A stretch of DNA of 64,000 nucleotides. Origin: a virus. The position numbers and the translations under genes were made by a program. The notes beneath the pieces are model-generated. The model was not told the DNA's origin. It did not search any database and saw nothing but the letters and a program-made list of their open reading frames with translations. Shown here piece after piece: positions 1,302 to 11,276 of this stretch. Each line of letters starts with the position of its first letter. Positions within the stretch are counted from its first letter, which is position 1. Where the stretch lies: the IMG/VR virus record IMGVR_UViG_3300031452_000163; one strand, written 5' to 3'.

Positions 1302-1583
1302 GTGAGCGAAGTGTTGTACTCGATGGAGGCAGCGATCTGCGGGATTCGGCAAGAATCGAAGGCGACGGGCGGAATCTCCAGGGCGACAATGGTACGTGGC
1401 TCTGCAAATGGCACACTGCGAGTTAGTCGGGAGTTGATGGTCGGGGAGCACGTGCTTCACCTAACCATCTCTCCGACGGATGGGTGCCCATCCGAGGTAA
1501 CGGTCGCCGTTTCCGATTTGATTGAGATGTTGAACGAGTTCAATCTCCTACCCCACCCAGAGAGAGACAACGGCTCGAATTAG
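1302..1583 (+). CDS. hypothetical protein
   Basis: GAGGAG SD, GTG start; converges on the holin stop. Confidence 0.5.
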   Translation: MSEVLYSMEAAICGIRQESKATGGISRATMVRGSANGTLRVSRELMVGEHVLHLTISPTDGCPSEVTVAVSDLIEMLNEFNLLPHPERDNGSN

Positions 1584-2002
1584 ATACGCTGTGCAGGGTC
1601 GGATGCCGGATTGCTCACGGCTTCGACTACCGGAGGATGAACGGGAACAGCGGCGATTGGTGGAGTGGATGAATCTCCAGTTGTGGAGACTGGTGTAGGG
1701 CCAGGCAGTCCAGTGAGCGCATGGTAGACCGAGATGGCGCTGGTTCCGACTGCGAGCACCGCGGCGAGGACGCCGGTAATGAATTGACCAGTGAATACGA
1801 TGGGCGTGGTTGCTGATGAGTAGAGAATGACCACTGCGGCGGCCAGGAGATAGACGTACAATCGTACAAAATTGGTATGATTTGGACTCGTGGGTTTGAT
1901 GAGGTAGTCAACTAAAAATTTCGAGAATTGACAAATTAGCGCGACAGTGGCCGCTGCTGAGACGAGATCAACGAGGGGCTGAGCGTTGGCGAGAGATGTT
2001 AT
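1580..2002 (-). CDS. holin-like membrane protein (probable ATA start)
   Basis: Frame is open 47 codons upstream of the tracked ORF to an ATA 5 nt after AAGGAG, overlapping the upstream TAA; three hydrophobic segments and a Pro-rich tail. Confidence 0.7.
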   Translation of the reverse strand: MTSLANAQPLVDLVSAAATVALICQFSKFLVDYLIKPTSPNHTNFVRLYVYLLAAAVVILYSSATTPIVFTGQFITGVLAAVLAVGTSAISVYHALTGLPGPTPVSTTGDSSTPPIAAVPVHPPVVEAVSNPASDPAQRI

Positions 2003-2373
2003 GGGGACTCCTTGGGTATCGGCTTGCTATCGTAAATCGTCGTGGGCACGTTAAACACTAACTGCGCGGGCACGCGGAGGTCGCCGCCGTCTTCCGTGCG
2101 AATCAACAGGAAACGCCCCTGCAGGCCGGTAATTGTGCCCGCAAACGGCGCGGGTGATTCTATCCATTTGCCGGGTAGTATCCAGCGTTCGGCGCGGAGC
2201 GTTTTCGCATCGAGGACGGCAAGCAAATAGCCGGACAGCGATTGGCTGAGAGCGAGTGCGGCTATGCCGGTGAATATGGCTAATGACGGATTGTGGCTCC
2301 CGGCGTAGATCGCGTAGACGAGTAGGCCAGCGAGGGTGATAGTGGAAACGATGGCGTGGATACGGTGGTTCAA
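1999..2373 (-). CDS. minimal MscS-like mechanosensitive channel protein
   Basis: ALALSQSLSGYLLAVL resembles MscS TM3; GKWIESPAPFAGTITGLQGRFLLIRTEDGGDLRVPAQLV resembles the MscS beta domain; AAAGGA SD before TTG. Confidence 0.65.
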   Translation of the reverse strand: MNHRIHAIVSTITLAGLLVYAIYAGSHNPSLAIFTGIAALALSQSLSGYLLAVLDAKTLRAERWILPGKWIESPAPFAGTITGLQGRFLLIRTEDGGDLRVPAQLVFNVPTTIYDSKPIPKESP

Positions 2374-2463
2374 TGGCGGTCCTTTCGTCGTCTCAGGTTG
2401 GGCAAGCCTAGGTGATCCATGGTATAATGACCATATAAACCATGGCAATTTAGGGGGGCGTAT

Positions 2464-2997
2464 ATGGCTGAAGTTGTGACGTTGCCAGAGTTGGCGACGG
2501 AGTTAGGCATGGATCGATCGAACATGCGCAAGTATGTTTTGAAGAACGGGTTTCAGGTATTGCAGGTGCGCACGCCAGAATCGAAGGGTCAATTGGTTCT
2601 AGCACTGTCCCAGGAAGATGCAGAAGCGGTTAGGGAGTCTCGAATGCGACAGGGCTTCCTCATTTCGGGCGTGTCCGGTGTATCCATCGAAGTGGGAAGT
2701 GGCTCCTTCTACATCGTGCAAATTGTTCCAGACTTGGATGAGCACCGAGTGAAATTCGGATTCGCAACCGACACAATGCGACGACTCGATTCCTACAAAA
2801 CGATTTCACCTTCCGCTCAATTGGTCAAGATGTGGCCATGTCGAGCATCGTGGGAGATAGCGGCTATTGCCAGCATCTGTCGTGTTGGCTGTGTCTCGAT
2901 GGGTGGCGAGGTCTTTACCTGTGACAGTTTGGAAAGCATCGTGGAGCGTGGGGACGCCTTTTTTGAGATCATGCCGTCTATCGCCAAGGACTCCTAG
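2464..2997 (+). CDS. HTH + GIY-YIG-like (T5orf172-type) endonuclease
   Basis: N-terminal TLPELATELGMDRSNMRKY HTH; FYIVQ..RVKFGFATDTMRRLDSYKTISP motif. Confidence 0.7.
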   Translation: MAEVVTLPELATELGMDRSNMRKYVLKNGFQVLQVRTPESKGQLVLALSQEDAEAVRESRMRQGFLISGVSGVSIEVGSGSFYIVQIVPDLDEHRVKFGFATDTMRRLDSYKTISPSAQLVKMWPCRASWEIAAIASICRVGCVSMGGEVFTCDSLESIVERGDAFFEIMPSIAKDS

Positions 2998-3050
2998 CCA
3001 AGTTTCGACCAGCCGGAGCTTGATACAAATACAGTGAAAGCGAGAGCGAA

Positions 3051-3692
3051 GTGAACAACAGCAAATCAGCCATTAAAGTTCCGGCTCTGTCAACGGCTTA
3101 TGGTGGGCGCATCTTTGGGAGTCGTTACAAGGCGCGGTGGGCTCTATTCATGGACCTAATCGGCATAGAGTACGCTTACAGACACGACGGAAATTATCAG
3201 TCTTTTGGCGCATGGGAGCCGGATTTTTGTGTGGATGCTGGAGCCACATACCTTCATGTCTCGCCACTTCCAATTGAATCGGAACGGTTGAATCAGGCGA
3301 AATTTTTTGTTGAAAAAGCAAATGCAGAGCAAGGCTTTACCCAGCTCTTTTTGATTCATGGCCGCATCGGTGCACCTCGGCGCGCGGATGACAGTCCATA
3401 CGTAATGAGGAGGCTTTGTAAGCATGATTCGCGAAGCTTTCCGAAAGACCCGCCAAGTTTCGCGCTTGAGGATATCCGCTATGCGTGGGGTGAGTGCGCG
3501 AATTGTTTCGATGTTTCGCCGAATTTTGCAGATGGCGATCCTTCATGTCGGTTTTGCGGAGAAGACACGACGTGCACCTCGGAAGCCTTGAAGGAAGCCT
3601 ATCGCGCTGCTCAGTCCATCAAGCTAGATTCCTGGGCCAATCTTCGATTGACGTTGGCAGTGAGGCCGACCAAAGTTGAACTTCTAACCTAA
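3051..3692 (+). CDS. PD-(D/E)XK-like phage protein, degenerate active site
   Basis: TAYGGRIFGSRYKARWALFMDLIGIEY..PDF resembles the FRSRLEARWA..YEPE..PDF..EVK family. Confidence 0.55.
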   Translation: MNNSKSAIKVPALSTAYGGRIFGSRYKARWALFMDLIGIEYAYRHDGNYQSFGAWEPDFCVDAGATYLHVSPLPIESERLNQAKFFVEKANAEQGFTQLFLIHGRIGAPRRADDSPYVMRRLCKHDSRSFPKDPPSFALEDIRYAWGECANCFDVSPNFADGDPSCRFCGEDTTCTSEALKEAYRAAQSIKLDSWANLRLTLAVRPTKVELLT

Positions 3693-4556
3693 AAAATCCA
3701 CAGTCATCCACGTCGTACCATTCACCGTCACAATACCGACTCCAACCGATGAATAGGCGCTGCTCAGAATCGAGCAGGCGTGGTTTGAGCCGGACGCGCA
3801 ATACGCCGCGTCGTGTGGTTCGGCCATCATCTGGCTATGGATTGTCTGGAGTGCTTGCTGGACTGGCCCAGTGGCGTAGCCGATATTTTCGCCAGCAGCA
3901 CGAATCGGCGACACGCAGATATCCGCTGGGAACTGGTCGTGTGCCAAAACGTCAGTAGCCGCCATATGTGTCGCGTGACCATGCGAGCCGACACAGGAAC
4001 CGGTACCGTCACTCTCTGTCTGGTTGATCGAGTACGCTGGCAGGCCATAGCTCGCCCTGGTCTGATTCATTAGGTACAGCTCGTAGGCCACCGGATCAGA
4101 CGGTGGGACGGCCTGCGTCGGTTGTGGCGCTGGCGTGTCCGTCGGCTGAGGTGGCGCAATGTACGGTGTCGGCGTTTGGAAAGCAGGTGGAAAGTAGGGT
4201 GTCGATGTTGGTTTCGGCGTTGGCCGAGTGCTGAGAATCGTCACTGTGTCCCGCATGGTGCAGTGCTGAAACCGTTGCGTCCAGGTCATGCCACGGCGAT
4301 GCTCGCGGCTCACTGGTTGACCGCAGGAGCGGTGAGCCGGCCACAGTTGAGCGAAGTGCGTTGTGCCATGTGTGGAATAGCGTTGCCATGCTTGAGCCAG
4401 ATTCGAGGCTTGAGTGCCTGGGGCGGTGTAGGTAACAGCCTCTCCGATGTTGGCGGGTTGTGCCGGCTTATCGGGTCCGGTTGTACTTTTGCCGATGAGC
4501 CAGCCGATAGCGATTAACATTGCAGATGTCACGATGATGGTGCTAAGGGATCTCAG
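3684..4556 (-). CDS. membrane-anchored CAP/SCP domain protein (probable CTG start)
   Basis: MNQTRASYGLP, H..HM, GENIG, NHACSILSSAYSSVGVG, WMTVDF motifs; N-terminal TM; Pro/Thr linker. Confidence 0.85.
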   Translation of the reverse strand: MRSLSTIIVTSAMLIAIGWLIGKSTTGPDKPAQPANIGEAVTYTAPGTQASNLAQAWQRYSTHGTTHFAQLWPAHRSCGQPVSREHRRGMTWTQRFQHCTMRDTVTILSTRPTPKPTSTPYFPPAFQTPTPYIAPPQPTDTPAPQPTQAVPPSDPVAYELYLMNQTRASYGLPAYSINQTESDGTGSCVGSHGHATHMAATDVLAHDQFPADICVSPIRAAGENIGYATGPVQQALQTIHSQMMAEPHDAAYCASGSNHACSILSSAYSSVGVGIVTVNGTTWMTVDFLG

Positions 4557-4577: not shown

Positions 4578-4889
4578 ATGGAAGAGGCAGAGTTTCGGAT
4601 TGGGGATGTGGTACGTGTGACAGCGCCTCACATCGCATGGAATGGTGATGTTTATCAGCCTCCACGGCCCGTGCATCCAGAAAAACTAGCGCCAGCGGGT
4701 GCTGAGGGCGTTGTGAAACTCTGCTACTTGTATCCAAGGGGATACGGGAATGCGGAGTGCCCCTCTGAATGGCGCATCGTTGCAATCCCGGAAATGCGGT
4801 GCTTCGTTCATGTCCCAGTTGACCATCTGGAGTTCATCGCGCACCAGTCGTCACCGGAAGAGATCACGGCTATGTATGCTACGGCTTGA
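4578..4889 (+). CDS. small SH3/KOW-like protein, paralogue A
   Basis: FRIGDVVRV..VAIPEMR..LEFIAHQSSPEEITAMYA; clear paralogue at 11666. Confidence 0.7.
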   Translation: MEEAEFRIGDVVRVTAPHIAWNGDVYQPPRPVHPEKLAPAGAEGVVKLCYLYPRGYGNAECPSEWRIVAIPEMRCFVHVPVDHLEFIAHQSSPEEITAMYATA

Positions 4890-5307
4890 GCGGCATCGTT
4901 GGTACCGGTACATCTTGCTGCTCGACCTCGTGGACTTCCATATCCTCCGAGCGGTCGATCAGGAGTTGCAACGCTTGCCGTAGCCAGATTCCGTTTTCGT
5001 GGTCGATGTGCGCCCTGAGTACGTCAAACTTCGCTTCCGCCGCTTGTCCCGCGCCGATCAGCGGCATGAGCATGAGTTGCACAAAATTGCTGAGGAGTAG
5101 GTATATCACCAGCCCCGGCAGTGGGTCGAAGTGTTTGGAGAAGGGCAGGAGTTGCCATGCCACCCAAGCAACCGTCCAGGCGATGATGACTACAAACATC
5201 CAGACGGTAAACACGCGTCGGGTGATAGCCATGCTGAGGCGATCGCTACGAGACATTGCGGCGAGGGTTTCAACGCTGGCATTACGGGAGTCATTGACGT
5301 TACCCAT
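4879..5307 (-). CDS. DUF1003-like membrane protein
   Basis: SDRLS..TVWMF..W..FDPLPGLVIYLLLSN..MPLI..Q..RAHID pattern. Confidence 0.65.
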   Translation of the reverse strand: MGNVNDSRNASVETLAAMSRSDRLSMAITRRVFTVWMFVVIIAWTVAWVAWQLLPFSKHFDPLPGLVIYLLLSNFVQLMLMPLIGAGQAAEAKFDVLRAHIDHENGIWLRQALQLLIDRSEDMEVHEVEQQDVPVPTMPLKP

Positions 5308-5312
5308 TGACG

Positions 5313-5555
5313 CTAGTCCCTGATCAGGTGTTCGACACCGCAAATTGCAGCGGCGATGTAGCCGAGAAATCCCATGGTTATCTGCCCGATAAAGCCTCCA
5401 GCCAGAAAGAGGTCTAACTGCTGGTGGTCATAGCTTGGGCCGATGTTGGCAATCACAATCAGGAAGATGGGCGCGATCAGCCAATTCAGCCCGGCAAATA
5501 TGAAGTAGTGTAATGCTCGTGCGCCGTACTTGTTTGTGTTGGGCGTAGTGTTCAT
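5313..5555 (-). CDS. small two-TM membrane protein
   Basis: Two hydrophobic segments; ATGA coupling. Confidence 0.55.
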   Translation of the reverse strand: MNTTPNTNKYGARALHYFIFAGLNWLIAPIFLIVIANIGPSYDHQQLDLFLAGGFIGQITMGFLGYIAAAICGVEHLIRD

Positions 5556-5809
5556 CGCGTGCCGCTTTTTCTATTGAGCAGGCGGTCAATGAATCCACGT
5601 GGATCACGTACTGGTTCCTGATAGACGATTCCGGCCTTGACTTCCACGGCCAAGAGTCGTTGATGGAATCCAGATACCAGCGTTTCGCACGCATCGACTC
5701 GGCTCTTCAAATCCGAGACGTTCCACTGCTCGGACATAACCTGCGCCTGTGTTCCGCTCAAGACGGCACTCTGGATGTTTTCCTGCATCTGGTCATTTTG
5801 CTCGTTCAC
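5552..5809 (-). CDS. hypothetical coiled-coil protein
   Basis: AAGGAG SD and GTG at 5809 overlapping the upstream TGA. Confidence 0.6.
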   Translation of the reverse strand: MNEQNDQMQENIQSAVLSGTQAQVMSEQWNVSDLKSRVDACETLVSGFHQRLLAVEVKAGIVYQEPVRDPRGFIDRLLNRKSGTR

Positions 5810-6030
5810 GATGTACTCCTTTTGGGTGTATCTTGCGATGAATTGGTAGCGATATTGGTAGCGGTGAGAGAACATGGCGCGTAATTGTCGAGCTGCGGCC
5901 AAGAATGTGGCCAGACATAGATCTCCTGAAAGCGGAATTGATCCAGTTCATATCCGTCCATACCGTGTCGTCTAGCCAGATGGCGTGGATTGCGAGATTT
6001 ATCACGCGGGTCGGGCGGCATGCGGGTCAC
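5806..6030 (-). CDS. 74-aa protein repeating a C-terminal motif of the upstream gene
   Basis: GTGA overlaps at both ends; RRHGMDGYELDQFRFQEIYVWP vs RRGVDGYELDMFRYQQLYWWP. Confidence 0.55.
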   Translation of the reverse strand: MTRMPPDPRDKSRNPRHLARRHGMDGYELDQFRFQEIYVWPHSWPQLDNYAPCSLTATNIATNSSQDTPKRSTS

Positions 6031-7142
6031 CTGTGTGCCTTTCTGTGAGGGCATGGTAGGCCTGGAAGCGATCGACACGGTGCCGTGCGCCAGTGTACGG
6101 ATTTGCGATGCACTGAGCGATGGACCGGATATCCCGCCCACTTCACCGCCCAGTGTGGATGGCGTGGCCACCAGTAGAGTTGCTGGTAGCGGAACATGTC
6201 CAACTCATAGCCGTCCACACCGCGCCGTCCCGCAGGGTGCCATGATTCAGCATGGGTAATGCTGCCCGAGCGCTTGGGGCCGTGCTTTTGCCACTGTACA
6301 GCTGCATAGGTGAGGCGACCGTGAGAACGGTAGGCGATGAGGCGCTTGTGATGGTTGGCGAAGTAACTGTTCCAGAGTTTTGCCGGGAATGCAGCGGGTT
6401 TCGGCGTTGGGCGTGGCTTCGGCTTGACGTAATGGTAGTCGGTGCCATAGAGCACGCGGGTGAACCAACTGTAGGCTGCTTGGTCGACCAACATGCACAA
6501 TTGACTATTGGATGGCCCTGGGTTGCCGTTGCCGTACTGTGCCCAGTCTGGCCAGCGCGAACGGCCCACGTAGTTGCCGCCACTAAAGAGCGTGGCAGTC
6601 GGGGCGGATGGCAGCGTGGAGATGTTGCCGACGGTTAGGGCGGTATCATCCTCGGTTTTGCCACGTTTGTGTGTGTCGATGCTACTGGCCGCATGCGGTG
6701 GTAGCGTTGCCGTTACGCCGCCCGCCACCTGCCCTAGATGCAGCAGCGCCGCATGGCCGCCACCGGGCGTGTGGAACTTGAAGACGTAGCCACTGCCTTG
6801 GACATAGACGCTACCGGCGTAGGGGTAGCGGTCCGCTGAACCGCCGGGCAACGTGACTATCTCCTGTGCCGCGTAGGGCAGCAGGTAGTCGATATCAGCC
6901 ACCGGTGGCGAGCCGTCCAGTAGGTTGGCTTCGTAGGCGTAAGCGCTACTCACCACGCCGGTCACGGCTTGTAGGCCGAAGAGTCGTGAACCAGCACAGG
7001 CGTAGGTCACTGAGCCGCATGAGACGGCGCCGGGCAGGGTTGGCACCGTCTGCACTTGGGTGAGGCGTTGGGCGGAGATGAGGAGTGCCAGGATCAGGCC
7101 GAGGATTGTGCCGAGGAGGAAGCGATTGTGGGAGACGGTCAT
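6027..7142 (-). CDS. secreted cell-envelope protein, possible degenerate M23-like domain
   Basis: Signal/TM segment; ADIDY..GHAALLHL; C-terminal module shared with the endolysin. Confidence 0.6.
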   Translation of the reverse strand: MTVSHNRFLLGTILGLILALLISAQRLTQVQTVPTLPGAVSCGSVTYACAGSRLFGLQAVTGVVSSAYAYEANLLDGSPPVADIDYLLPYAAQEIVTLPGGSADRYPYAGSVYVQGSGYVFKFHTPGGGHAALLHLGQVAGGVTATLPPHAASSIDTHKRGKTEDDTALTVGNISTLPSAPTATLFSGGNYVGRSRWPDWAQYGNGNPGPSNSQLCMLVDQAAYSWFTRVLYGTDYHYVKPKPRPTPKPAAFPAKLWNSYFANHHKRLIAYRSHGRLTYAAVQWQKHGPKRSGSITHAESWHPAGRRGVDGYELDMFRYQQLYWWPRHPHWAVKWAGYPVHRSVHRKSVHWRTAPCRSLPGLPCPHRKAHR

Positions 7143-7561
7143 GATGACCTGTCTAACTTTTCTATCGTCCATTCTGAATTCCACCACTGGGTTTTCGCAC
7201 GTACACGGTTCATGTGAAAAAAGCAGACTTCTATGCCGGGAATGTTCATCGGTTCGCTATTCTGTTGCATTCGGTAGATGCTCCTATACGTGCAGTACTC
7301 GCACTCCCCTGTCGGTTTGCCCGACTGACATCTGGAGTTTGTTCCGATTGATTGCGAAACTGGTACGTACAGCGTCGCGGCCAGCGCCTCAAGGTCGCCT
7401 TCACCCAGCTCACGCGCGGCACGGAGGGCGGCCAGGACGTGCTCTTGCGTGCTGGGGATTGGCGGCGACTGGGTGGCATGTTTCGAGTGTTCGATGACCG
7501 TGTATATGAGGAATAGGAGCGTGATCGCGACCACGGCAAGGCCAACATCTAATACCGCCAC
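7139..7561 (-). CDS. hypothetical membrane-anchored protein
   Basis: N-terminal TM; Cys cluster; coupled to the downstream gene. Confidence 0.55.
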   Translation of the reverse strand: MAVLDVGLAVVAITLLFLIYTVIEHSKHATQSPPIPSTQEHVLAALRAARELGEGDLEALAATLYVPVSQSIGTNSRCQSGKPTGECEYCTYRSIYRMQQNSEPMNIPGIEVCFFHMNRVRAKTQWWNSEWTIEKLDRSS

Positions 7562-8436: not shown

Positions 8437-8656
8437 TTCATTGCCAGTCAAGGCAGAGTAAGCTTACTTTCCGTGCCACTTCGGCGTCCAGGTGGCATGA
8501 CGTGGCCACCAGAACAGATTGAGATAGCGGAAGTTTGGCATGTTGACAGCTCCTCTGCACGGGCTAAAAATGCTAAAATAGAGGGTATAGAAAAGCCTCC
8601 GCGCCCGTGAATCAGACGGACCGGAGGCGTTGAGACAGCCTGTAAGGAGGCCATCT

Positions 8657-9469
8657 GTGACTAGCGTACCAGGAACACGGAGGACGTTCGAGAGACTGCG
8701 TCCACGTGTCGGATTCAAGTTTTGCCGTGACTGCGGAGCCGAAAAGCCGTTAACCGACTTTTACAATGCCACGGGGAACAAAGATGGCAAGCAAACGTCT
8801 TGCCGAGAATGTCAGGACGTCACGAACTACCAGGCTAGAGGTGCATCGGGCAGTTCGCAATTACCGCCTCAAGCACGGGATCGCCTGCTAAGTCGGTGCT
8901 CGCGGCATGGGGATTGTCTGTTATGGACCGGCCCTGTTAGCGTACGAGGTCATGGGAAACTTGAGATCTTAGGCGCTGCTTGGATGGTGCATCGCATGGC
9001 CTATGCACTGGAAGTGGGGTCCATTCCGCCTCGCATGATTGTGTATCAGGTATGCGGGAACAAATTATGCGTAGAGCCATCACACTTGAAGGCCAAACGG
9101 TCAAGAAGCCTGGTTGGTGATGGCACCAAGTTTTGTTCACGATGTGGTGAGGTGTTACCGCTGTCCGAGTTTTATGGACAGAGAGGAGCAAATGGGAGGC
9201 TTCAGGCATACTGCAAAGACTGCCATCGATTTGATGCATATGGCATTACTCAGCGGGAGTACGACGACCTGCTGAAAATACAGGCCGGACTGTGTGCCAT
9301 TTGCGATATGCCATCGAATGGCCGCAGTCTATCTATTGACCACTGTCACTCAAGCGGCGCGGTACGTAGACTATTGTGTTCAAGTTGCAACGTCGCATTG
9401 GGGATGTTGCGAGACGATATCCGTCTATTTCATCGAGCTATCGAGTATTTGTCAAAGGCTAGCGTCTAG
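8657..9469 (+). CDS. free-standing endonuclease: Zn fingers + degenerate HNH + endonuclease VII domain
   Basis: AAGGAGG SD; two C2..FY..C2 fingers; HRMAY..CGNKLCVEPSHL; QAGLCAIC..IDHCH..LLCSSCNVALG. Confidence 0.85.
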   Translation: MTSVPGTRRTFERLRPRVGFKFCRDCGAEKPLTDFYNATGNKDGKQTSCRECQDVTNYQARGASGSSQLPPQARDRLLSRCSRHGDCLLWTGPVSVRGHGKLEILGAAWMVHRMAYALEVGSIPPRMIVYQVCGNKLCVEPSHLKAKRSRSLVGDGTKFCSRCGEVLPLSEFYGQRGANGRLQAYCKDCHRFDAYGITQREYDDLLKIQAGLCAICDMPSNGRSLSIDHCHSSGAVRRLLCSSCNVALGMLRDDIRLFHRAIEYLSKASV

Positions 9470-11276
9470 AAGCCTTGCATCTGTGGGAAGCGGGCCAGCA
9501 GCGTAGGACGCCTCGCCCAAATCGAGTTTGCATATAACCGTGGCTACGTCCATAGAAGTGTCCCCGGTTAAGATCGCGTCCTAGCCATCGGTAATGATTT
9601 AGCCACTCCGATGCCGCCCATGAAAGTCCGCCGTGATACCTATAAGGGAGAGAGCCCCATGCCTTCACAGGGAACGGTTTGGGGGCAGGTTTCGGTGTTG
9701 GTCCGGGCGTTCCTGCGTAGTACGCCTGGGTGTACCTCCACCATGGCAGGAAATTTCCGTAAAAATTGGTATACGCGACTGAACCGTAGGGAAGGTTGAC
9801 GTAGAAGGAGTCGGAATACGCGTAACCGGCATTGTAGAGAGAATACGCGAAGGGGAATTGAACCCGGCCACCGTGATAAGCGATGGCATCGCGGTAGTAT
9901 CGTGCTGCGAGCTCCACGGAGATGGTTGGATTGTCGAGTGCATCACGGATCCCTGAGCAGATGCCATATCCACACGCGGTGCCATTCGTAAATTGGAACG
10001 TTCCCCAACTGGTGTCACCGGGGATGCAGCAGCGGTCGGCGTATTGATTCATACCCGATTCGGTACCCGCCGTGGCAGCGATTCCGAGAGGACTCACGCC
10101 ATAGCGTTTACCCCAGTAATTAATGAGGCTGGAGATGTCGTAGTGCGTGTCGTGGAGAATGACGCCATGTACGGTGTTGCCAACGCCTTCAAGCGCGCCG
10201 GGTGGAATGTTCAGGATAGGCGGGAGATATTTGGGTCCATGGTTTGGCACAAAGGTAGGAGGCTTCGGACCGGCCCGTGGGGCCAGCGGCGCAATCCGCA
10301 TGTACTCCAGTCCAAAGCTGTACTGTCGTACAAAATCGTAGGACAGCCAACCACGACCGGCCAGACCCCATCCGGTGGTCCACTGGTTTTGCACCTCAAC
10401 GCCGCCCACGGCGCCACCGGGGAATCGCTTGGTGTCGTCATAGGCAATGACGACGTTTTCGTGGCCGCCGCGCGACTGTTCGCCGGGTTGAGGTATATCG
10501 ATCAGGCCACTTGTCGCGCTGGCGTTGTCATACTCCGGGTAGACCGGTAGTCCGATGAGTACCGGATGATTGACGGTGATGGCCGCCTTGATACCGTCCA
10601 CCGCACCCTGTCCCGCACCTTGGGCAAAACCTGAGATGTTGGTAAATCCGACATGCATCCGATACACGGCGGCTTCGGCTCGGAGCGTGGGATCAGTCGG
10701 GAACGTTGACGCGACAACGAATGGCGGGTAGGCATACTGCTTGAGCTTGGGAATGCCGAGCGTGTTGACCACTTCGGCATCTTGATCCGGCCATGAGCCA
10801 AAGTCGCCATGTGAGTAGGTTGCTCCGTAATAATCGTACATAAATCTTGGGGAAAATCTTAGCCACGATGTCGGGTGCTGCATGCGATATTCGTAGGTCA
10901 AATCCCAGGCAGTGGCGAAAGCCGCGCAAGCACCAAGTCCATCTTGCGTTGTCACACCGGGATAGCGAGCCAGGTTGATGCTGTTGGCTAGCGGCGCGGT
11001 GACGCGATGATCGGGAATGACGCGAACGGTCGTTGGCACTACGATATTAGCCTGAAAGTGACTGGCGTAGTATTCTGCTCCGGTCTTGCCGGCGAATGCG
11101 CCCAGAGCAAAGACCGCCAAAAAGGCGATAGCCAGCACCAGTGCATGCGGCGTCGCGTAGCCGCCTGCTCTATGCGTCGGGTTGAGGACGTGCTTGAGTG
11201 GGCATGTGTTGCGCCGGAGGATGAGTCCGAGAACAATGAGGGTGGCAATAATGCCGAGAATGGCGAGTGTGTGCAA
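9459..11276 (-). CDS. endolysin: C1A papain-like peptidase + SLT lytic transglycosylase
   Basis: QDGLGAC, GGHENVV, QNQW (Cys-His-Asn triad); GTESG and WGTFQF SLT motifs; two N-terminal hydrophobic segments. Confidence 0.8.
   Translation of the reverse strand: MHTLAILGIIATLIVLGLILRRNTCPLKHVLNPTHRAGGYATPHALVLAIAFLAVFALGAFAGKTGAEYYASHFQANIVVPTTVRVIPDHRVTAPLANSINLARYPGVTTQDGLGACAAFATAWDLTYEYRMQHPTSWLRFSPRFMYDYYGATYSHGDFGSWPDQDAEVVNTLGIPKLKQYAYPPFVVASTFPTDPTLRAEAAVYRMHVGFTNISGFAQGAGQGAVDGIKAAITVNHPVLIGLPVYPEYDNASATSGLIDIPQPGEQSRGGHENVVIAYDDTKRFPGGAVGGVEVQNQWTTGWGLAGRGWLSYDFVRQYSFGLEYMRIAPLAPRAGPKPPTFVPNHGPKYLPPILNIPPGALEGVGNTVHGVILHDTHYDISSLINYWGKRYGVSPLGIAATAGTESGMNQYADRCCIPGDTSWGTFQFTNGTACGYGICSGIRDALDNPTISVELAARYYRDAIAYHGGRVQFPFAYSLYNAGYAYSDSFYVNLPYGSVAYTNFYGNFLPWWRYTQAYYAGTPGPTPKPAPKPFPVKAWGSLPYRYHGGLSWAASEWLNHYRWLGRDLNRGHFYGRSHGYMQTRFGRGVLRCWPASHRCKASRR

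What the first reader, a model, noticed from the sequence alone, without database searches (positions are those of the whole stretch)
1580..2373. Minimal MscS-like channel translationally coupled to the holin
Seen: a 124-aa protein with two TMs, the second aligning with the MscS pore helix (ALALSQSLSGYLLAVL vs GLALQGSLSNLAAGVL), then the MscS beta domain, but no C-terminal cage. Its stop overlaps the holin start. Inference: a phage-borne tension-gated pore, or a dominant-negative subunit for host MscS, that tunes lysis timing or osmotic bursting. Not a standard lysis-cassette component to my knowledge.
Basis: partly seen in the sequence, partly recalled or inferred. Interest (0 to 1): 0.62.

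Follow-up and report, generated by a model that had tools for sequence, protein, structure and literature searches.

The report
Miniature MscS channel in phage lysis cassette
A temperate phage carries a 124-residue, stripped-down relative of the bacterial pressure-release channel MscS, joined gene-to-gene to a three-helix membrane protein at the end of its late (lysis-position) genes; this suggests, but does not show, that the phage uses a borrowed ion channel to help time or trigger host-cell bursting.

Summary
ORF 2373..1999 (minus strand, TTG start, 124 aa) has two TM helices and a beta domain. It is a true but very diverged homologue of the MscS core (EcMscS residues about 60-183: TM2, TM3a/b, beta domain). 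It lacks TM1 and the alpha/beta cage. Pfam misses it directly. A 9-sequence family profile hits only MscS-family structures (E 4e-8), hhalign to E. coli MscS gives 91% probability, and the AF2 model matches MscS/YnaI/TcMscS (Z 10-11).

Two corrections:
The correct register puts invariant L40 on gate residue L105 and invariant Q44 on L109.
- The overlapped start of the downstream gene is ATA here (ATAA). It is ATG (ATGA) in the related phage.

The downstream 140-150-aa 3-TM protein is conserved and always co-occurs with the MscS-like gene. It matches no known holin family, so "holin" rests on position and topology only. In a related phage the pair directly follows TM-anchored peptidase and CAP genes at the end of the tail/late operon.

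Best reading: a heptameric, low-threshold channel that works with the 3-TM protein to depolarise the membrane at lysis (inferred). Closest known architecture: the miniature TcMscS of Trypanosoma cruzi. I found no phage precedent in the sources searched. A first-reader note from this same scan describes the same cassette on other DNA.

The parts
1999..2373 (-). CDS of the miniature MscS-like protein (124 aa; TTG start 2373-2371, TAA stop 2001-1999)
   Evidence: homologues share the start; MscS homology and fold; dN/dS 0.20 against L002
2380..2386 (-). Shine-Dalgarno-like GAAAGGA, 6 nt before the TTG start
   Evidence: read from the sequence
2299..2370 (-). helix 1 (aa 2-25), equivalent to MscS TM2
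   Evidence: AF2 H2-25; VIA alignment to EcMscS from residue ~59; hydropathy
2191..2289 (-). helix 2 (aa 29-61), equivalent to the pore helix TM3a plus TM3b. L40 (2254-2256) aligns with L105, Q44 (2242-2244) with L109, G48 with G113, R63 with R128.
   Evidence: both alignments give the same register; L40 and Q44 are invariant in all 9 family members
2026..2178 (-). MscS beta domain (aa ~66-116)
   Evidence: (strands 70-114). Relatives P0018 and P0014 hit PF00924 here and NCBIfam MscS/MscM models.
1580..2002 (-). CDS of the conserved 3-TM partner protein (140 aa if started at ATA 2002-2000; stop 1582-1580). It overlaps the MscS-like stop as ATAA. The first canonical start (TTG 1861) would give only 93 aa and has no SD.
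   Evidence: all 11 homologues start MT(S/P)L at this codon; three hydrophobic segments; dN/dS 0.14; three helices, low pLDDT
2008..2013 (-). Shine-Dalgarno AAGGAG inside the end of the MscS-like gene, 5 nt before the ATA. L002 has AGGAG 6 nt before its ATG.
   Evidence: junction sequences of both loci
2399..2448 (.). divergent sigma70-like promoter matches (+: 2399-2428, 10/12 with TG; -: 2448-2419, 9/12), with a 10-nt inverted repeat at 2417-2445 lying across them
   Evidence: consensus matches only, not evidence of function
2464..3692 (+). two plus-strand genes (177 aa and 213 aa, no family match) that separate the pair from the CAP gene in this phage. They are absent in L002, so they are an insertion.
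3684..4532 (-). exported/anchored CAP-domain protein (282 aa). In L002 its homologue ends 3-12 nt before the MscS-like start.
6027..7187 (-). TM-anchored 386-aa protein. It shares only its C-terminal ~104 aa with L002's TM-anchored C39/C1-like peptidase. Candidate lysis enzyme.

Best explanation
The 124-aa gene encodes the bare core of an MscS channel: TM2, the pore helix TM3a/TM3b and the beta domain. This is the same minimal architecture as the 165-aa TcMscS of Trypanosoma cruzi, which is a functional heptameric mechanosensitive channel without a cage.

Inferred mechanism:
- The protein inserts N-in/C-in into the host cytoplasmic membrane and assembles into a heptamer whose pore is lined by TM3a.
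- One of the two hydrophobic gate rings is kept (L40 = L105). The other is an invariant glutamine (Q44 = L109), a position where a polar residue (L109S) makes E. coli MscS gain-of-function and lethal. The channel should therefore open at low tension or leak.
- It is made late, in fixed ratio with the translationally coupled 3-TM partner, next to lysis-position enzymes that carry their own membrane anchors or signal sequences.
- Its opening dissipates the membrane potential. That triggers or sharpens lysis, as a pinholin does for exported endolysins, and possibly couples wall weakening (rising membrane tension) to depolarisation.

Shown: homology, fold, domain content, gene coupling, co-occurrence, purifying selection, synteny. 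Inferred: heptamer, conduction, low threshold, role in lysis.

In this particular provirus the partner's start codon is ATA, so the partner is probably made at a much lower level or not at all.
For: Homology and fold: and 61 (Atlas structure rows are all MscS families); relatives pass PF00924 and NCBIfam MscS.

A minimal architecture can be a working channel: TcMscS paper PMC12334622.

Gate register and invariance of L40 and Q44. L109S is gain-of-function and lethal: PMC3386975.

Coupling: ATGA in L002, ATAA here, SD conserved.

Selection: dN/dS 0.20 and 0.14.

Position: in L002 the order is tail genes, then TM-anchored peptidase, then TM-anchored CAP, then MscS-like, then 3-TM, then convergent early genes. 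L002 has no other small TM gene in that stretch.

Lysis-position enzymes carry N-terminal TM segments. Pinholins are heptameric ~2 nm channels that act by collapsing the PMF for exported endolysins: PMC9636201.

No defence-system match.
Against: - There are no functional data.
- No multimer model could be made.
- The 3-TM partner matches no holin family, and its C-terminus is Pro-rich and acidic rather than basic.
- The enzymes nearby are not proven endolysins. Most of their anchors are strongly hydrophobic rather than SAR-like.
- In this window the pair is cut off from the late operon by two plus-strand genes and has its own promoter-like site, which would also fit moron-type expression.
- This window also has other small TM genes (5316-5555, 4882-5343) that could be the real holins.
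- Context is known for only two phage genomes.
- dS is saturated (>1), so dN/dS is rough.
- The Q44 = L109 register rests on profile alignments of moderate confidence.
Confidence: 0.5

Rival explanations
1. Lysogenic-conversion cargo (moron). The channel serves the lysogen, for example as an extra osmotic safety valve or a superinfection-exclusion membrane protein, and is expressed from its own promoter in the prophage rather than at lysis.
For: In this window the pair is isolated between plus-strand genes, with sigma70-like promoter matches and an operator-like inverted repeat just upstream. The element is temperate: integrase and a LexA-like DNA-binding gene. An earlier scan note reports lambda-like prophages carrying a full-length YnaI next to the lysis genes as cargo (unchecked AI note).
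Against: - In L002 the gene sits 3-12 nt after the CAP gene inside the late operon.
- The protein is not a host-type channel. It is a stripped, highly diverged core with a polar gate residue that would be harmful if constitutively expressed.
- It is always coupled to a phage-specific 3-TM protein.
- No relatives were found in 185,579 species genomes.
- No PADLOC match.
Confidence: 0.2
2. Regulator rather than pore. The MscS core acts as an antiholin or scaffold that binds the 3-TM protein (the true holin) and holds or releases it, without itself conducting. Alternatively it poisons host MscS by mixed assembly.
For: Translational coupling implies a fixed stoichiometry. The most conserved part of the partner is its first loop, K-F..D-Y..K-P..N-H.N.V-R-L-Y-V-Y, which by the positive-inside rule faces the same side as the beta domain. 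Holin/antiholin pairs are common (paper).
Against: - Pore-helix features are kept: G36 = G101, L40 = L105, G48 = G113 kink, R63 = R128. This is unnecessary for a mere scaffold.
- Identity to canonical MscS is about 20-27%, which makes mixed heptamers with a host channel unlikely.
- There is no host genome to compare.
Confidence: 0.2
3. Decaying remnant. The pair is a non-functional leftover in a defective provirus.
For: The partner's start codon is ATA in this record. The record is an 84%-complete provirus.
Against: Both frames are intact. dN/dS is 0.14-0.20 against a 70%-identical relative. The SD sequences are kept. Nine family members keep their length and invariant residues. ATA with a strong SD and coupling can still initiate weakly (general knowledge, not tested).
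Confidence: 0.1

Closest known systems
TcMscS, the miniature MscS of Trypanosoma cruzi (165 aa; PDB 9BGQ/9BGT/9BGU; PMC12334622)
   Same: Same minimal domain set: TM2, kinked pore helix TM3 and beta domain, with no TM1 and no alpha/beta cage. VIA Z 10.3 over model residues 1-114 against chain residues 18-137, nearly the whole resolved chain. The family profile hits it at E 1.5e-4. TcMscS is a working heptameric mechanosensitive channel.
   Different: - Only about 18% identity, with no sign of a specific relationship, so the reduction was probably independent.
- The phage protein is shorter (124 aa) and has no N-terminal amphipathic helix and no long C-terminal tail.
- The gate differs (L40/Q44 here).
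- It is viral, encoded in a late operon and coupled to a 3-TM protein.
E. coli MscS and YnaI (PF21088/PF00924/PF21082; PDB 2OAU, 6RLD, 5Y4O)
   Same: Homologous over EcMscS ~60-183. Conserved: G101, L105, G113, R128 and G133 equivalents, and the beta-domain fold.
   Different: - Lacks the N-terminal cap and TM1 (the tension-sensing paddle partner), the alpha/beta domain with its side portals, and the C-terminal barrel.
- L109 is replaced by an invariant Gln.
- The P129-F130 motif is not kept (W64-I65).
- The window protein itself is below Pfam detection.
Pinholins (phage 21 S21-68) with SAR or exported endolysins
   Same: Small phage membrane proteins that form heptameric nanometre-scale channels whose job is to collapse the PMF rather than let endolysin through. 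The genomic position is next to membrane-anchored wall enzymes.
   Different: No sequence or fold relationship. Pinholins are two-helix proteins without a cytoplasmic domain. The functional analogy is inferred only.
MscS/MscL-like genes of large eukaryotic DNA viruses (Aureococcus anophagefferens virus 261 aa; Sylvanvirus 651 aa)
   Same: Virus-encoded MscS-family proteins. They are the only BFVD matches at E<1e-3 and are listed in PMC6163359.
   Different: They have the cage domains, come from eukaryotic giant viruses rather than phages, and are not in a lysis context. Their function is also unknown.

Membership tests
MscS superfamily (mechanosensitive channel of small conductance) | Sequence homology to the conserved core (TM3 + beta domain; Pfam PF00924 MS_channel_2nd) | tested here: met
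   Direct Pfam scan of the window protein: no hit. Family profile vs PDB: E 4e-8, the first 31 hits are all MscS family. hhalign to EcMscS: 91%, E 1e-6. Family members P0018 (31.8 bits, above the 20.2 cut-off) and P0014 (19.5 bits) hit PF00924 and NCBIfam MscS/MscM.
MscS superfamily (mechanosensitive channel of small conductance) | Fold: TM2-TM3a-kink-TM3b followed by the beta domain | tested here: met
   AF2 model pLDDT 77.5. Foldseek top ~45 hits are all MscS family. VIA Z 10-11.3 for 46 MscS-family entries, next Z 6. The monomer model shows TM3 as one straight helix, so the kink itself is not modelled.
MscS superfamily (mechanosensitive channel of small conductance) | Hydrophobic gate rings (L105 and L109 in EcMscS) in a Gly/Ala-rich pore helix | tested here: inconclusive
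   L40 = L105 is invariant. L109 is replaced by an invariant Gln44. The Gly/Ala pattern is only partly kept: G36, A38, A39, A41, G48. This is compatible with a pore but with an altered gate.
MscS superfamily (mechanosensitive channel of small conductance) | Cytoplasmic alpha/beta cage with side portals (PF21082) and TM1 | tested here: not met
   The protein ends at the equivalent of EcMscS ~183 and begins at ~60. The next gene is a 3-TM protein. TcMscS shows that these parts are not required for channel function.
MscS superfamily (mechanosensitive channel of small conductance) | Homoheptamer with tension-gated conductance | not testable with these tools
   Only single-chain prediction was available. 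This needs a multimer model, BN-PAGE or cryo-EM, and patch clamp.
Holins (for the 3-TM neighbour 1580-2002) | Match to a described holin family | tested here: not met
   No Pfam, PHROG or NCBIfam match. The Atlas's nearest Pfam-bearing clusters carry Phage_holin_5_2 in 19-23% of members, at a score of 0.84-0.85, which is below the level to trust.
Holins (for the 3-TM neighbour 1580-2002) | Small protein with one or more TMDs, encoded in the lysis cassette beside the endolysin, with a charged C-terminal tail | tested here: inconclusive
   It is 140-151 aa with three hydrophobic helices. It is the last gene of the late operon, after anchored peptidase and CAP genes in L002. However, the tail is Pro-rich with net charge -1, and the neighbouring enzymes are not proven endolysins.
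Pinholin-type lysis trigger (functional class, for the MscS-like protein) | Lethal PMF-collapsing small channel that activates exported or SAR endolysins | not testable with these tools
   Only context is available: N-terminal TM segments on the neighbouring enzymes. This needs lysis and depolarisation assays.

The most novel reading that the evidence does not exclude
A lineage of temperate phages has turned the core of a host mechanosensitive channel into a lysis protein. It would be a 124-aa heptameric MscS-derived 'pinholin' with a polar gate. Together with a coupled 3-TM partner, it would convert wall weakening or membrane tension into sudden depolarisation and lysis. This would be a new holin-like class that arose by exaptation of a cellular channel, and also the smallest MscS known. 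Atlas and BFVD leads hint that small MscS-core proteins may be widespread in uncultured phages.
Probability: 0.3. Interest if true: 0.85.

Novelty: new variant of a known kind. Interest (0 to 1): 0.62.

Why it matters
Three reasons, if the reading is true.

1. It would add a new origin for phage lysis-control proteins. This would be a cellular mechanosensitive channel cut down to its pore and beta domain. It would also add a physically attractive mechanism, with membrane tension or depolarisation as the trigger.

2. It would give MscS research a natural 124-aa minimal channel with a polar residue at the L109 gate position. That complements TcMscS for asking which parts are needed for assembly and tension sensing.

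3. Mechanosensitive-channel genes have been reported in giant eukaryotic viruses but, in the sources searched here, not in phages. A phage family, possibly a much larger hidden class, would extend the list of virus-encoded ion channels.

Tried and rejected
**Searches that found nothing**
- Direct Pfam, PHROG, NCBIfam and PADLOC scans of the window protein gave no MscS, holin or defence hit. PF00924 against the whole provirus gave nothing at E<=0.001.
- tblastn of the protein, and of distant relatives P0018 and P0050, against 50,697 phage records found no phage match.
- E. coli MscS has no PHROG. Against the phage collection it hits 16 records. The three Salmonella/E. coli 'phage' fragments and seven 'Bacteriophage sp.' faecal-metagenome contigs among them carry no annotation. 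The only one examined, MT840054, is an unverified faecal-metagenome fragment with a glycosidase-like ORF, a ParB-like ORF and a full-length MscS.

**More genomic contexts**
- Viral contigs, metagenome contigs and genome-contig scans with A2, A3, P0014, P0018 and P0050 gave only one other phage locus (L002 = L003 = L006) and nothing in 185,579 species genomes.
- The record behind L003 could not be searched for host genes, so the host is unknown.

**Readings rejected**
- The 149-aa version from TTG 2448: homologues start at 2373, and there is an SD there.
- The 93-aa version of the partner from TTG 1861: the 47 codons upstream are conserved, homologues start at the ATA position, and there is no SD before 1861.
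- The long repeat proteins that phmmer ranks high (E down to 1e-13). These are secreted multi-repeat beta proteins. Most match only residues ~72-119 by summed repeats (the top hit's best stretch is 23-83). I treat them as motif-level likeness, not as evidence about function.

**Low-confidence results**
- The AF2 model of the partner has pLDDT 53, too poor for fold search.
- The Atlas feature hits (viral clusters of 108-176 aa, one of 813 members with 18% carrying PF00924) and the weak BFVD hits to ~100-aa phage proteins could not be followed up because no sequences are returned. They are leads only.

Full report
**What is there**

The window is bases 5669-69668 of a 69,957-bp IMG/VR provirus record. 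It has a tyrosine integrase at the right end. A long minus-strand structural block holds terminase, portal, major capsid and tail genes. Plus-strand early-type genes (helicase-methylase, LexA-like) lie to the left.

At 2373..1999 on the minus strand is a 124-codon ORF with a TTG start. GAAAGGA lies 6 nt upstream, and the stop is TAA. The longer 149-aa reading from TTG 2448 is not supported. All close homologues are 124-129 aa and begin at the 2373 position. The 90-bp gap up to the divergent gene at 2464 holds promoter-like sites for both strands.

**Is it MscS-like?**

Curated family models do not see the protein: Pfam gives no MS_channel hit at E<=1, and PF00924 against the whole record finds nothing. 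Four independent lines nevertheless agree.
- phmmer against PDB sequences puts 13 MscS/YnaI entries on top, weakly (E~0.01), all in one register.
- An exhaustive phmmer over 1.8 billion representatives finds a small family of same-sized proteins. Its distant members P0018 and P0014 hit PF00924 (31.8 bits, above the 20.2 cut-off, and 19.5 bits). They also hit NCBIfam MscS/MscM models over exactly the core region.
- A profile of nine family members (A1) hits 31 PDB sequences that are all MscS family, best E 4e-8. hhalign against E. coli MscS gives 91% probability and E 1e-6, with residues 25-119 on EcMscS 90-183.
- The AlphaFold2 model (pLDDT 77.5; helices 2-25 and 29-61, then five strands) retrieves only MscS-family chains in Foldseek (about 45 top hits). 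It gives Z 10-11.3 to 46 MscS-family entries before dropping to Z 6. That includes EcMscS 59-188 and nearly the whole resolved chain of the miniature T. cruzi channel (Z 10.3, 18-137).

So the protein is TM2 + TM3a/TM3b + beta domain. TM1, the alpha/beta cage and the C-terminal barrel are absent, and nothing downstream encodes them.

**Register and gate**

Both profile alignments run from TM3a through TM3b without a gap, with a single one-residue gap before the beta-domain strands. They give these equivalences:

| Phage protein | EcMscS |
|---|---|
| G36 | G101 |
| L40 | L105 |
| Q44 | L109 |
| G48 | G113 (the kink) |
| R63 | R128 |
| G68 | G133 |

L40 and Q44 are invariant in all nine family members. 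L105 and L109 form the hydrophobic seal of EcMscS, and L109S is a gain-of-function lesion that is lethal when expressed (PMC3386975). An invariant glutamine at that position therefore suggests a channel that hydrates and opens easily. This is an inference.

**The neighbour and the coupling**

Its first canonical start (TTG 1861) would give 93 aa, but the 47 codons upstream are conserved.

In the one related phage locus I could fetch, the gene starts with ATG overlapping the MscS-like stop as ATGA, with AGGAG 6 nt upstream. That locus is L002 = L003, IMGVR_UViG_3300031471_000119 / JAABUL010000526.1. All 11 database homologues begin MT(S/P)L at that codon.

In this window the same codon is ATA (ATAA overlap), with AAGGAG 5 nt upstream. 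The coupling is therefore real, but here the start is a near-cognate codon. The partner is probably made at a much lower level or not at all, unless this is a sequencing error.

The partner is 140-151 aa and has three hydrophobic helices. It has a highly conserved first loop and a Pro-rich tail ending in a conserved S-D-P-A-Q-R-I. It matches no Pfam, PHROG, NCBIfam or PADLOC family. The only hint of 'holin' beyond position is a sub-threshold Atlas similarity to clusters partly annotated Phage_holin_5_2.

Both are under purifying selection between the window and L002 (dN/dS 0.20 and 0.14, with dS saturated).

**Context**

L002 is syntenic with the window's tail region. After it, on one strand, L002 carries a 423-aa TM-anchored peptidase (PHROG 'peptidase', weak C39-like), a TM-anchored CAP-domain protein, the MscS-like gene (3-12 nt after the CAP stop) and the 3-TM gene. 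Convergent genes follow. No other small membrane protein lies in that stretch. The pair therefore occupies the place where holin genes sit in many phages whose lysis genes follow the tail genes.

The window has the same elements with extra material:
- a 605-aa protein with two TM helices, a papain-like domain and an SLT domain;
- an HNH/Endo VII gene;
- a DUF1003 protein and an 80-aa 2-TM protein;
- two plus-strand genes (2464-3692) inserted between CAP and the MscS-like gene.

Because of that insertion, the pair here must use its own promoter. The lysis-position enzymes all carry N-terminal hydrophobic segments. They are therefore probably exported without needing large holin holes. That is the situation in which small PMF-collapsing channels (pinholins, heptamers with a ~2 nm lumen) suffice (PMC9636201).

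**How it most likely works**

Shown: an MscS-core homologue, coupled to a conserved 3-TM protein, at the end of the late gene block of a temperate phage group.

Inferred:
- It forms a heptameric pore like TcMscS, which has the same domain set and is a working mechanosensitive channel without a cage (PMC12334622).
- The polar gate lowers the opening threshold.
- When the protein accumulates late, alone or with the partner, it depolarises the membrane and so triggers or sharpens lysis.
- It possibly responds to the tension rise caused by wall damage.

I put about 0.5 on this overall: about 0.9 on MscS-core homology, about 0.6 on channel function, and about 0.5 on a lysis role. Rivals are a lysogen-serving moron (0.2), a non-conducting regulator/antiholin or a poison of host MscS (0.2), and a decaying remnant (0.1).

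**Comparison with what is known**

The closest architecture is TcMscS. The closest sequences are bacterial MscS and YnaI (about 20-27% identity).

Virus-encoded MscS-like genes are on record for giant eukaryotic viruses. These are the only significant BFVD matches, and PMC6163359 lists mechanosensitive channels only for large DNA viruses. I found no report of a phage MscS-like lysis component, no PHROG for MscS and no match in 50,697 phage records.

Earlier notes of this scan mention lambda-like prophages carrying full-length YnaI as cargo. They also include a first-reader note on other DNA describing the same peptidase-CAP-MscS-like-3-TM cassette. The first I did not test. The second agrees with what I verified in L002.

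Atlas leads suggest larger viral clusters of ~110-aa proteins, partly carrying PF00924. I could not check this.

**Verdict**

This is a new variant of a known kind, a phage-borne miniature MscS in lysis position. Its function is unproven.

**Limits**

Noticed in passing
window 2000-2002 (minus strand): The 3-TM partner gene has ATA where all 11 relatives have a Met start, and L002 has ATG in an ATGA overlap. The SD AAGGAG is retained. Either this is a weak near-cognate start under translational coupling, or an inactivating point change, or a sequencing error in this provirus.
   Followed up: partly
window 2417-2445: A 10-nt inverted repeat (CCATGGTATA / TAAACCATGG, 9 nt apart) lies across both divergent promoter-like sites between the MscS-like gene and the plus-strand gene at 2464. 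It is operator-like.
   Followed up: partly
window 2464-3692 (+): Two plus-strand genes (177 and 213 aa, no family or PDB match) are inserted between the CAP gene and the MscS-like gene, relative to the related phage L002. They look like a mobile or moron insertion that split the late operon.
   Followed up: partly
window 6030-7187 (-) and L002:5816-7087: The window's 386-aa TM-anchored protein and L002's 423-aa TM-anchored peptidase share only a C-terminal ~104-aa domain rich in basic residues, Trp and His (66% identity). Their N-terminal parts are unrelated. This is the domain-swap pattern typical of lysins with a common wall-binding module.
   Followed up: partly
window 9462-11276 (-): A 605-aa protein with two N-terminal TM helices, a papain-family (Peptidase_C1) domain and an SLT lytic transglycosylase domain. 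It is absent from the L002 locus and is followed by an HNH/Endonuclease VII gene on the other strand (8630-9469).
   Followed up: partly
window 4882-5902 (-): Three overlapping small genes absent from L002: 116 aa with no TM, 80 aa with 2 TM, and 154 aa DUF1003 with 2 TM. They could be an alternative holin-like set in this phage.
   Followed up: no
residues 72-119 of the 124-aa protein (window 2017-2160): phmmer finds long secreted repeat proteins (repeat G-G-T-V-S-G-L-x-G-x-G-L-V-L-Q-N-N-x-G-D-D-L, weak DUF4369 hits), mostly over this beta-domain stretch. Summed E-values reach 1e-13, better than for real small homologues. This is a motif-level likeness of unknown meaning.
   Followed up: partly
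window 1580-1583: The convergent plus-strand gene 1296-1583 and the 3-TM gene end on overlapping stop codons (TAG at 1581-1583 and TAA at 1582-1580). There is no room for a terminator between them.
   Followed up: no
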